Shown: positions 26,853 to 36,341 of the stretch, one piece after another
Numbering within the stretch: position 1 is the first letter of the stretch
How the letters are laid out: each line of letters begins with the position of its first letter
Origin: Candidatus Aenigmatarchaeota archaeon
Lineage (GTDB): Archaea > Aenigmatarchaeota > Aenigmatarchaeia > CG10238-14 > SpSt-28
DNA length: 64,000 bases
Reading direction: 5' to 3'
Assembly: GCA_038733315.1 (NCBI GenBank)
Contig: JAVYPJ010000002.1
Span: forward strand, 84,571-148,570
The notes under the pieces: generated by a model
The model's input: only the letters and a program-made list of their open reading frames with translations
Told to the model about the DNA's origin: nothing
Database searches by the model: none
Position numbers and translations under genes: made by a program

Positions 26853-26925
26853 GATTTTAATTTTTAAGTTAGTAATATCCACTCTAAAACCTTAAGCTAA
26901 GCAAATAAATTAAAAAATTATCAGC

Positions 26926-27023
26926 TGGGCCCGCTGGGATTTGAACCCAGGACCTCCCGCTCTCTTAGATAATAGAGCGTCGCCATATAAGGCGGGCGCT
27001 CCACCAGACTAAGCTACGGGCCC
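26926..27023 (-). tRNA. tRNA-Ile(UAU) with 24-nt intron at 37/38 (26962..26985)
   Basis: Reverse strand: GGGCCCG acceptor, CCCGC/GCGGG stem, CT TAT A. BHB central helix CUUA pairs perfectly with intron UAAG, which fixes the anticodon register. Confidence 0.92.
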
Positions 27024-31353: not shown

Positions 31354-31462
31354 GGGCCCGTAGCTCAGTATGGTAGAGCGGCGGGCTTTTAGTTTTAAAC
31401 TAAAAGCTCTGATATAAAATGAAGAAACCCGTAGGTCGCGGGTTCAAATCCCGCCGGGCCCA
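31354..31462 (+). tRNA. tRNA-Lys(UUU) with 35-nt intron at 37/38 (31392..31426)
   Basis: Body nearly identical to tRNA-Lys(CUU); GCGGG/CCCGT stem; BHB helix CUUU pairs with GAAG. Confidence 0.92.
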
Positions 31463-36267: not shown

Positions 36268-36341
36268 GGGCGGGTAGCTTAGCCTGGTGGAGCGCCCGGC
36301 TGATAACCGGGAGGTCGGGAGTTCAAATCTCCCCCCGCCCA
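36268..36341 (+). tRNA. tRNA-Ile(GAU)
   Basis: GGGCGGG/CCCGCCC acceptor, CCCGG-CT GAT AA-CCGGG anticodon arm. Confidence 0.97.

What the first reader, a model, noticed from the sequence alone, without database searches (positions are those of the whole stretch)
26926..27023. tRNA-Ile(UAU) intron repeats the same self-complementary architecture with a different sequence
Seen (minus strand): intron T-GGCG-A-CGCTCT-ATTATC-TAAG-AG. GGCG is the reverse complement of exon CGCC (29-32) and CGCTCT of AGAGCG spanning the 3' splice site. The layout matches the Thr intron, but each segment tracks its own exon (natural covariation), which makes chance unlikely. Inference: a shared, selected structural rule or a common intron-generating mechanism, which I do not recognise as described.
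Basis: partly seen in the sequence, partly recalled or inferred. Interest (0 to 1): 0.68.

Follow-up and report, generated by a model that had tools for sequence, protein, structure and literature searches.

The report
Self-antisense intron in archaeal tRNA-Ile(UAU)
The 24-base intron of this archaeal tRNA-Ile(UAU) gene is an ordinary splicing-endonuclease intron, but its first half is also an antisense copy of the tRNA's own positions 21-32, and this pairing is kept by compensating mutations across DPANN archaea, so the unspliced tRNA probably has a second, non-cloverleaf shape.

Summary
Window 26926-27023 (-) is tRNA-Ile(UAU) with a 24-nt intron at 37/38, TGGCGACGCTCTATTATCTAAGAG.

- **TAAG** is the standard central helix of the bulge-helix-bulge (BHB) splice motif. 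This part is known.
- **GGCG:CGCC** (intron i2-5 with exon 32-29, "helix A") is real and selected. In 36 orthologues it pairs in 92% of cells, with changes on both sides at 3 of 4 pairs. There are 24 G:U cells and no A:C cells. No shuffle or permutation reaches the observed value.
- **CGCTCT**: The conserved partner is GGAGCG, exon 21-26 (the 3' strand of the D stem plus G26, "helix B"). It is perfect in 16 of 38 tRNA-Ile(UAU) introns and in 0 of 66 other introns.

Together these helices form a long hairpin that excludes the D stem, the anticodon stem and the BHB. It is predicted to be 10.7-15 kcal/mol more stable than the spliceable fold.

The feature is not a general rule of BHB introns. It is specific to tRNA-Ile(UAU), plus this genome's tRNA-Thr(UGU). 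Its function is inferred only: most likely a conformational gate on splicing or anticodon modification. I found no published description. There is no RNA evidence.

The parts
26926..27023 (-). tRNA-Ile(UAU) gene with intron. 5' exon 27023-26986, intron 26985-26962, 3' exon 26961-26926. Anticodon UAU at 26989-26987.
   Evidence: Rfam RF00005, 60.4 bits. ARAGORN in intron mode gives Ile(tat) i(40,24). Cloverleaf parsed by hand.
26962..26985 (-). 24-nt intron UGGCGACGCUCUAUUAUCUAAGAG at position 37/38.
   Evidence: Splice sites are placed by BHB geometry, not by RNA data: there were no reads in 3 metatranscriptomes.
26964..26967 (-). Intron strand UAAG (i19-22) of the BHB central helix H. It pairs with C32 U33 U34 A35 (26991-26988). 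The bulges are U36 A37 U(i1) and A(i23) G(i24) A38.
   Evidence: The same register gives H in all three intron tRNAs of the window. H has >=3 of 4 pairs in 104 of 115 collected introns.
26981..26984 (-). Helix A, intron strand GGCG (i2-i5).
   Evidence: Pairs with exon 32-29. 35/36, 33/36, 35/36 and 30/36 sequences are paired, with both-side changes at 3 of 4 pairs. RNAalifold predicts exactly this helix.
26991..26994 (-). Helix A, exon strand CGCC (nt 29-32: the 5' strand of the anticodon stem plus C32).
26970..26979 (-). Helix B, intron strand. The core is CGCUCU (i7-12, 26979-26974), extended in this gene to i16.
   Evidence: The MFE structure pairs it with exon linear nt 18-27. The core is 6/6 complementary to nt 26-21 in 16/38 Ile introns and 0/66 others.
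26997..27006 (-). Helix B, exon strand. The core is GGAGCG (nt 21-26, the D-stem 3' strand plus G26, 27002-26997), extended into the D loop.
27009..27013 (-). CUUAG (nt 11-15 of the D arm), the same letters as nt 32-35. In the MFE fold it pairs with intron CUAAG (26968-26964), 'helix C'.
   Evidence: The GCUU D stem is found in 15/35 Ile pre-tRNAs and 8/63 others.
26958..26963 (-). AGAGCG across the 3' splice site (i23, i24, 38-41).
   Evidence: Complementary here and energetically possible at -44.3 kcal/mol, but not conserved in orthologues.
14781..14874 (+). tRNA-Thr(UGU) with a 22-nt intron at 14817-14838, UGGCACUGCUUGCUAUCGAGCA, with the same architecture. Helix A GGCA:UGCC is 4/4. UGCUU pairs with nt 26-22 (5/6). 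CUGCUUGCU also forms a 9-bp hairpin with AGCAAGCAG over the 3' splice site.

Best explanation
This is a canonical archaeal 37/38 BHB intron in the AUA-decoding tRNA-Ile(UAU). On top of the splice motif it carries a second, conserved structure.

**The structure.** Intron nt 2-5 pair with nt 32-29, which is the 5' strand of the anticodon stem plus C32. In about half of the family, including this gene, intron nt 7-12 pair with nt 26-21, which is G26 plus the 3' strand of the D stem. In this gene the pairing runs on, so nearly the whole intron is antisense to exon nt 11-32. The result is a long imperfect hairpin with the anticodon in its 6-nt loop. This hairpin cannot coexist with the D stem, the anticodon stem or the BHB.

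**Shown.** The pairing exists. It is kept by compensatory and G:U-tolerant substitutions across DPANN lineages. It is specific to tRNA-Ile(UAU), plus this genome's tRNA-Thr(UGU). Nearest-neighbour energies put it well below the spliceable fold.

**Inferred.** Its strands are transcribed before the 3' exon, so the pre-tRNA is born in this hairpin. It must be refolded into cloverleaf plus BHB before the splicing endonuclease can cut. The hairpin would therefore act as a conformational gate or placeholder on maturation of this tRNA. A plausible link is to modification of the UAU anticodon or of G26, which has to be right before the tRNA is released.
For: - **Helix A conservation.** 92.4% of cells pair, against 12-55% with slid partners. 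0/500 shuffles reach the observed pairing or covariation score. Three of 4 pairs show changes on both sides. RNAalifold predicts the same helix.
- **Independent stem variants are matched by the intron.** CCCGC goes with GGCG, GCCGU with GACG, GCCGA with GUCG, CUGCU with GAGU, and Thr CCUGC with GGCA.
- **Permutation.** 0/20000 permutations of introns among orthologues reach the observed total. There are 27 intron clusters at 70% identity among 39 sequences.
- **RNA-level selection.** Helix A has 24 G:U cells and 0 A:C cells. Where nt 31 is U, i3 (A or G) is independent of nt 39 (A or G), so i3 is a pairing partner and not a copy.
- **Helix B.** 6/6 in 16/38 Ile introns and 0/66 others. Shuffled introns reach >=5/6 in 10% of cases, against 45% observed. 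U is found at i7 in the helix-B members where nt 26 is A (L011, L025), and A at i12 where nt 21 is U (L030).
- **Energetics.** The MFE of the window pre-tRNA is the long hairpin at -50.0 kcal/mol, z = -4.2. BHB-constrained folds give -39.3, or -34.9 with the proper D stem as well. The hairpin stays the MFE from 37 to 80 C.
- **Across the family.** P(helix A) is 0.62 and P(anticodon stem) is 0.22 in Ile pre-tRNAs. In other intron tRNAs these are 0.02 and 0.60.
- **Specificity.** Every other anticodon family is at shuffle level.
Against: - There is no RNA evidence at all: no reads in three metatranscriptomes of the same study. Neither the splice sites nor the alternative fold has been observed.
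- Nearest-neighbour energies ignore tRNA tertiary contacts, Mg2+, modifications and proteins. Even control pre-tRNAs score about 2.5-3 kcal/mol worse in the BHB form.
- Helix B is absent in about half of the family. Some of those members instead pair the intron with the 3' exon (L159 12 bp, L229 and L195 8 bp), so only helix A is universal.
- i2 and i3 also serve the short BHB helix h', which may explain part of their conservation. It does not explain i4 and i5.
[quoted passage not shown] I could not obtain that substrate's sequence.
- The gating function is inference. Covariation cannot tell a cis role from a trans role of the excised intron.
Confidence: 0.55

Rival explanations
1. Two adjacent hairpins replace the anticodon stem: 29-32 with i2-5, and i7-12 with i23-24 plus 38-41 across the 3' splice site. 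This would be a rule shared by 37/38 introns.
For: Both hairpins exist in this gene and, more strongly, in Thr, where the second is 9 bp and belongs to the MFE. For Ile this fold scores -44.3 kcal/mol, still better than the BHB fold. A minority of orthologues have long intron:3'-exon helices (L159 12 bp, L229 8, L195 8, L240 7).
Against: Junction pairing of i7-12 is at background level: 3.1/6 in Ile and 2.7/6 in others. The CGCUCU motif recurs in L028, L035 and L056, where the 3' junction does not match but exon AGAGCG does. The D-strand fold is 5.7 kcal/mol better in this gene. There is no enrichment in 66 non-Ile introns.
Confidence: 0.12
2. The hairpin is a platform for intron-dependent modification. 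It displays U34, A35, U36 and A37 unpaired in a 6-nt loop on a long stem for an anticodon-modifying enzyme. This would parallel the intron-dependent pseudouridines 34 and 36 of eukaryotic tRNA-Ile(UAU).
For: The feature is restricted to tRNA-Ile(UAU), the tRNA whose U34 must not read AUG. In eukaryotes the intron of this same tRNA is required for pseudouridines 34 and 36 (PMC9602550, PMC6582322). In the BHB fold U34 and A35 are base-paired, while in the hairpin they are free. The known cultured archaea with tRNA-Ile(UAU) carry an intron in it (PMC6000648).
Against: No archaeal enzyme or modification of UAU tRNA-Ile is known to me, and none was tested. The loop has 6 nt with a C32:G pair, which is not an anticodon-loop mimic. 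This does not explain why Thr(UGU) has the feature only in this genome.
Confidence: 0.15
3. The excised intron, linear or circularised, acts in trans as an antisense RNA on tRNA-Ile or its precursor at nt 21-32.
For: Covariation between intron and exon is equally expected for a trans duplex. Complementarity spans 10-19 nt. Archaeal BHB introns are commonly circularised and stable (established knowledge).
Against: A 24-nt RNA would have to invade a folded, modified tRNA. There are no expression data. The cis hairpin forms first and is entropically favoured.
Confidence: 0.06
4. The feature is a non-adaptive relic or by-product. The intron arose as an inverted duplication of exon nt 11-32, or is kept palindromic by templated (quasi-palindrome) mutation, with no RNA function.
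For: In this gene almost the whole intron is antisense to the adjacent 5' exon, 19 bp in three blocks, which is what a snap-back duplication would give.
Against: Orthologous introns are diverged (27 clusters at 70% identity) yet keep the pairing. There are 24 G:U and 0 A:C cells. In particular there is no C:A at 47 exon-C positions, although G-to-A would be the favoured mutation in AT-rich genomes. DNA-level correction would yield Watson-Crick pairs only.
Confidence: 0.07
5. Chance complementarity in a short GC-rich intron.
For: A single 4-mer plus 6-mer match in one 24-nt intron is not rare on its own: shuffled introns reach >=5/6 for helix B in 10% of cases.
Against: Orthologue conservation, permutation and shuffle tests all argue against it.
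Confidence: 0.02

Closest known systems
Canonical archaeal hBHBh' tRNA intron at position 37/38, cut by the EndA splicing endonuclease and joined by RtcB
   Same: Position 37/38. A 4-bp helix between nt 32-35 and intron UAAG. Two 3-nt bulges carrying the splice sites. The anticodon stem serves as h, and there is a short h' (G2:C18, G3:U17).
   Different: The intron additionally encodes a conserved antisense to exon nt 21-32 that competes with h and with the D stem. 66 other BHB introns lack this.
Eukaryotic tRNA-Ile(UAU) intron, required for Pus1-dependent pseudouridines 34 and 36 (PMC9602550, PMC6582322)
   Same: Same tRNA species and same intron position. The intron is apparently obligatory wherever the UAU anticodon is used. 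It gives a functional reason for an intron in exactly this tRNA.
   Different: In eukaryotes the relevant structure is the anticodon-intron helix. No pairing of the intron with the D-stem strand or nt 29-32 is described. Archaeal modification of this tRNA is unknown.
Haloferax volcanii pre-tRNA-Trp intron, a box C/D guide that pairs with its own exons to direct 2'-O-methylation of C34 and U39 (from my own knowledge, not tested here)
   Same: An archaeal 37/38 intron with 10-12-nt stretches complementary to its own exons, kept for a function in the precursor.
   Different: The Ile and Thr introns are 22-24 nt and have no C, D, C' or D' boxes (no CUGA or UGAUGA). The neighbouring Lys(UUU) intron does have D'/C'-like boxes; see Noticed in passing.
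Intron transposition between tRNA genes in Thermoproteales (Fujishima 2010, cited in PMC4033280)
   Same: Similar introns in tRNAs of different specificity within one genome, here Ile(UAU) and Thr(UGU).
   Different: Sequence identity between the two introns (9 of 12-13 compared positions with the best Ile intron) is not above that of some unrelated introns. Homology is therefore not shown. The helix-A letters are adapted to each host exon.
Double-hairpin alternative fold of tRNA (Tanaka and Kikuchi 2001, cited in PMC4695843 and PMC4390854)
   Same: It proposes non-cloverleaf hairpin folds of tRNA halves and discusses a role for the intron.
   Different: That model pairs acceptor-stem bases (1-8) with nt 26-34, and 66-73 with 39-47. 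Here the partners are intron nt 2-12 with exon nt 21-32.

Membership tests
Archaeal BHB (hBHBh') tRNA intron | Intron interrupts a tRNA at the canonical 37/38 position. | tested here: met
   Cloverleaf parse. Rfam tRNA hit spanning both exons. ARAGORN in intron mode.
Archaeal BHB (hBHBh') tRNA intron | A 4-bp central helix flanked by two 3-nt bulges on opposite strands, each with a splice site after its second nucleotide. | tested here: met
   C32 U33 U34 A35 pairs with U19 A20 A21 G22. The bulges are U36 A37|U1 and A23 G24|A38. The same register holds in Thr and Lys and in 104 of 115 collected introns.
Archaeal BHB (hBHBh') tRNA intron | Flanking helices h (exon) and h' (intron) of at least 2 bp. 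| tested here: met
   h is CCCGC:GCGGG. h' is only G2:C18 and G3:U17. The family typically has 2 bp.
Archaeal BHB (hBHBh') tRNA intron | Actually excised by EndA and the exons ligated. | not testable with these tools
   No reads from this locus in 3 metatranscriptomes. No spliced joint was seen.
Box C/D guide intron (tRNA-Trp type) | Box C/C' (RUGAUGA) and box D/D' (CUGA) flanking the exon-complementary guide. | tested here: not met
   The 24-nt Ile intron and the 22-nt Thr intron contain neither CUGA nor UGAUGA-like boxes.
   In 66 introns of 11 other anticodon families helix A scores 1.64/4, against 1.53 for shuffles. Helix B is 6/6 in 0 of 66. Long intron:exon runs reach p<0.05 in 5-7% of them.
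Conserved alternative hairpin of pre-tRNA-Ile(UAU) (proposed here) | i2-5 pair with nt 32-29, with compensatory change. | tested here: met
   GGCG:CGCC in the window. 92.4% of cells are paired across 36 sequences.
Conserved alternative hairpin of pre-tRNA-Ile(UAU) (proposed here) | i7-12 pair with nt 26-21. | tested here: met
   CGCUCU:GGAGCG is 6/6 in the window. It is present in 16 of 38 family members only.
Conserved alternative hairpin of pre-tRNA-Ile(UAU) (proposed here) | The hairpin forms in the RNA. | not testable with these tools
   There are only thermodynamic predictions.
Transposed or shared intron (Thermoproteales type) | Intron sequences of different tRNAs are significantly similar. 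| tested here: inconclusive
   The Thr intron matches the best Ile intron at 9 of 12-13 compared positions, the same as two unrelated introns.

The most novel reading that the evidence does not exclude
The tRNA-Ile(UAU) intron of DPANN archaea is a built-in antisense switch. It holds the precursor of the only AUA-decoding tRNA in a non-cloverleaf hairpin until a modification or remodelling step (for example at G26 or the anticodon) releases it into the BHB fold. Splicing would then be a checkpoint that keeps an unmodified UAU anticodon, which could misread AUG, out of translation.
Probability: 0.2. Interest if true: 0.75.

Novelty: new variant of a known kind. Interest (0 to 1): 0.55.

Why it matters
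Why tRNA introns persist is a long-standing open question, and for archaea the only clear functional case is the box C/D guide in the tRNA-Trp intron. Here an intron family carries a second structure, supported by covariation, that is mutually exclusive with the spliceable fold. It occurs in exactly the tRNA whose intron is also obligatory and functional in eukaryotes. If the alternative hairpin forms, archaeal pre-tRNA splicing can be conformationally gated. That makes a concrete hypothesis testable with transcripts, recombinant EndA and compensatory mutants. Practically, it also explains why tRNA finders mis-call these genes.

Tried and rejected
- **Helix A as the central helix of an alternative BHB or BHL motif.** The predicted cuts would fall after nt 34 and after i7, not at the splice sites that give a valid tRNA. 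Rejected.
- **A pseudoknot combining helix A with H.** It is topologically possible but does not reproduce BHB geometry. Not pursued.
- **i3-5 as a copy of nt 39-41 (duplication or gene conversion).** Rejected. With U31, i3 and nt 39 vary independently, and i2 pairs with C32 one register off any symmetric mimic.
- **Tandem-duplication reading (intron i6 onward as a degenerate copy of exon 28-37).** Considered from the Thr and Ile sequences, then dropped. The similarity follows from both segments pairing with the same partner.
- **Box C/D guide for Ile and Thr.** No boxes are present.
- **RNA evidence.** Three metatranscriptomes from the same hot-spring study gave zero reads.
- **Marck and Grosjean 2003.** Not held.
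- **Thr orthologues.** Only 3 others were found and none has the architecture. Contigs of co-occurring organisms show an intron-less Thr(UGU) and unrelated introns.
- **Identity test for Thr/Ile intron homology.** Inconclusive.
- **ARAGORN intron mode on the 120 genome loci.** Gave many false introns in bacterial class II tRNAs, so I parsed introns with my own rules instead.

Full report
**What is at the coordinates**

Window 26926-27023 (minus strand) is a tRNA (Rfam RF00005, 60.4 bits). Read as a cloverleaf it is tRNA-Ile with anticodon UAU. A 24-nt intron, UGGCGACGCUCUAUUAUCUAAGAG, sits between nt 37 and 38. In window coordinates the 5' exon is 27023-26986, the intron 26985-26962 and the 3' exon 26961-26926.

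ARAGORN without intron search mis-calls it as His. With introns allowed it gives Ile(tat) with a 24-nt intron. The window has 25-32% G+C and comes from an organism found in hot-spring metagenomes.

Two more tRNAs in the window have 37/38 introns:
- Thr(UGU), 14781-14874, with a 22-nt intron.
- Lys(UUU), 31354-31462, with a 35-nt intron. Rfam finds it and ARAGORN's default mode does not.

**The known part**

In all three genes the four intron bases at n-5 to n-2 (UAAG, CGAG, GAAG) pair with nt 32-35. This leaves nt 36, 37 and i1 as one 3-nt bulge, and i(n-1), i(n) and nt 38 as the other.

That is the standard bulge-helix-bulge splice motif of archaeal introns (established knowledge; described in PMC4090602 and PMC12397907). 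The anticodon stem serves as helix h. In Ile, a minimal h' is formed by G2:C18 and G3:U17.

**The rest of the observation**

GGCG (i2-5) is indeed the reverse complement of CGCC (nt 29-32). CGCUCU (i7-12) is indeed the reverse complement of AGAGCG across the 3' splice site.

However, CGCUCU is equally complementary to GGAGCG at nt 21-26, which is the 3' strand of the D stem plus G26. The minimum-free-energy fold uses that partner. It has three blocks:
- 4 bp: i2-5 with nt 32-29.
- 10 bp: the intron with exon linear nt 18-27.
- 5 bp: CUAAG with D-arm CUUAG.

In total 19 bp make almost the whole intron antisense to exon nt 11-32. The fold scores -50.0 kcal/mol with z = -4.2.

**Orthologues**

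One scan of GTDB species genomes for CTTATA, a gap and then the T arm gave 21 archaeal tRNA-Ile(UAU) genes with introns. They come from Woese-, Pace-, Nano-, Micr-, Iain- and Aenigmatarchaeota MAGs, plus a few MAGs labelled as methanogens.

A general-anticodon scan of metagenome and viral contigs brought the set to 104 distinct 37/38-intron pre-tRNAs with an intact anticodon stem and at least 3 of 4 pairs in helix H. Of these, 38 are Ile(UAU) and 66 belong to 11 other anticodon families.

**Helix A (i2-5 with nt 32-29)**

| Measure | Result |
|---|---|
| Mean pairs in Ile(UAU) introns | 3.68 of 4 |
| Mean pairs in other introns | 1.64 of 4 (shuffles 1.5-1.7) |
| Sequences paired at the four positions, 36-sequence alignment | 35, 33, 35 and 30 of 36 |
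| Positions with changes on both sides | 3 of 4 |
| Cells paired | 92.4%, against 12-55% with slid partners |
| Shuffles reaching the observed value | 0 of 500 |
| Permutations of introns among orthologues reaching the observed total | 0 of 20000 |

RNAalifold predicts exactly this helix. Variant anticodon stems are matched by their own introns: CCCGC with GGCG, GCCGU with GACG, GCCGA with GUCG, CUGCU with GAGU, and Thr CCUGC with GGCA.

Two results point to selection on the RNA rather than to a DNA-level process:
- The helix contains 24 G:U cells and no A:C cell. There is no C:A at 47 exon-C positions.
- Where nt 31 is U, i3 (A or G) varies independently of nt 39 (A or G). The intron base is therefore a partner of nt 31, not a copy of nt 39.

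The BHB helix h' is typically only 2 bp in this family. It can account for i2 and i3 but not for i4 and i5.

**Helix B (i7-12 with nt 26-21)**

It is perfect (6/6) in 16 of 38 Ile introns and in 0 of 66 others. Shuffled introns reach at least 5/6 in 10% of cases, against 45% observed. The exon strand (RGAGCR) hardly varies, so the evidence is mainly a conserved YGYUYY motif. In the helix-B members where the exon does vary the pair is kept: A26 with U7 (L011, L025) and U21 with A12 (L030).

Pairing of i7-12 with the 3' junction averages 3.1/6 in Ile and 2.7/6 in others. The CGCUCU motif recurs in L028, L035 and L056, whose junctions do not match it.

A minority of orthologues do pair the intron body with the 3' exon instead: L159 with 12 bp, L229 and L195 with 8 bp.

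**Energetics**

For the window Ile pre-tRNA at 37 C:

| Fold | Energy (kcal/mol) |
|---|---|
| Long hairpin (helices A and B) | -50.0 |
| Anticodon stem plus H enforced | -39.3 |
| Proper cloverleaf plus BHB | -34.9 |

The hairpin stays the MFE from 37 to 80 C. Across the family, P(helix A) is 0.62 and P(anticodon stem) is 0.22. In the other intron tRNAs these are 0.02 and 0.60.

These numbers ignore tertiary structure, modifications and proteins. Control pre-tRNAs also score 2.5-3 kcal/mol worse in the BHB form.

**Scope**

The architecture is not a property of BHB introns in general. Every other anticodon family is at shuffle level. The Lys intron of this window, and the Val and Glu introns of a Woesearchaeote that has the Ile feature (L098), do not show it.

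The only non-Ile intron with helix A 4/4 and helix B at least 5/6 is this window's Thr(UGU). Three other Thr(UGU) introns lack it. Co-occurring organisms even carry an intron-less Thr(UGU) with the same 5' half. Whether the Thr intron is homologous to the Ile intron or convergent could not be settled.

**Mechanism**

*Shown:* a conserved, covarying, family-specific pairing that is mutually exclusive with the D stem, the anticodon stem and the BHB.

*Inferred:* both strands of the hairpin are transcribed before the 3' exon, and the hairpin is predicted to be more stable. The precursor should therefore start in this fold and must be remodelled before the endonuclease can act. That would make it a conformational gate or placeholder.

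The restriction to tRNA-Ile(UAU) suggests a link to anticodon or G26 modification, but nothing here tests that. Three facts make the link attractive:
- An unmodified U34 in this tRNA could read AUG.
- Its intron is required for pseudouridines 34 and 36 in eukaryotes (PMC9602550, PMC6582322).
- It carries an intron in the two cultured archaea that have it (PMC6000648).

They are listed with their evidence in the rival explanations.

[quoted passage not shown] Any gate is therefore kinetic rather than absolute. I could not obtain that sequence to check it for helix A.

**Novelty and limits**

Full-text searches and the reviews I read describe the following, but not this pairing:
- BHB and BHL motifs.
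- Intron transposition.
- Split tRNAs.
- The box C/D tRNA-Trp intron.
- The double-hairpin model, which has different partners.

The key 2003 BHB survey is not held, so prior mention cannot be excluded.

There is no RNA evidence: three metatranscriptomes gave no reads. The tests are not tree-aware.

Noticed in passing
window 31392-31426 (+), intron of tRNA-Lys(UUU) 31354-31462: The 35-nt Lys intron has CUAAAAGC (i9-16), complementary to exon G31-A37 plus i1. It is followed after one base by CUGA (31409-31412) and then, 7 nt later, by UGAAGA. That order (guide, box D'-like, loop, box C'-like) matches the internal half of an archaeal box C/D sRNA. The 5th base upstream of CUGA pairs with U34, the wobble base. 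A metagenomic Lys(UUU) intron (L225) shares AAAAGCUUUGA...AGAUGA with the same N+5 register. This may be a minimal cis guide for 2'-O-methylation of U34.
   Followed up: partly
window 26926-27023, 14781-14875, 31354-31462: ARAGORN in default mode calls the Ile(UAU) gene His(atg), calls the Thr(UGU) gene '???' with a 4-base anticodon, and misses Lys(UUU) entirely. In intron mode it calls Thr as Ala(agc) and Lys as a stop-anticodon tRNA (tta). Annotation pipelines would probably mis-assign these genes.
   Followed up: yes
window 27009-27013 (-), D arm nt 11-15; loci: The D stem is GCUU (a U13-G22 wobble) in 15/35 Ile(UAU) pre-tRNAs but in 8/63 other intron tRNAs. This makes nt 11-14 (CUUA) identical to nt 32-35, so the BHB strand UAAG can also pair with the D arm, as it does in the MFE fold.
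   Followed up: partly
window 26950-27000, contigs of runs X2 and X8: A co-occurring relative in the same hot springs has a diverged tRNA-Ile(UAU) intron, AGACCGAGUUCCGCACAUCUAAGAG. Its anticodon-stem pair 31:39 changed from C:G to U:A, and i3 changed from G to A. This is a three-way compensation. i5 (C) is mismatched with C29 there. The sequence was reconstructed from listed differences, so exon changes outside the list may be missing.
   Followed up: partly
window 14816/14817, contigs of runs X1 and X4: Some contigs match the Thr(UGU) 5' exon and then continue directly with AGCAGGAGGUCGAGGGUUCGAAUCC. This is an intron-less Thr(UGU) with the same anticodon stem in another organism of the community. 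Other contigs carry unrelated introns at the same site. Intron presence in this tRNA is therefore variable among neighbours.
   Followed up: no
window 26926-27023 and 36268-36341: The genome has both tRNA-Ile(GAU) and tRNA-Ile(UAU). Among 167 cultured archaeal genomes, the UAU species was reported only in Nanoarchaeum and Korarchaeum (PMC6000648). It implies that AUA is read without the agmatidine-CAU system. All three intron-bearing tRNAs of the window have U34-N-U36 anticodons (UAU, UGU, UUU).
   Followed up: no
window 26925-27023, contigs of X2 and X8 (section 5): A joint that 'goes back 99' (27023 to 26925, with one T between) appears in one contig each of two runs. It would correspond to two tRNA-like copies head to tail in a related genome, or to an assembly loop through conserved tRNA ends.
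   Followed up: no
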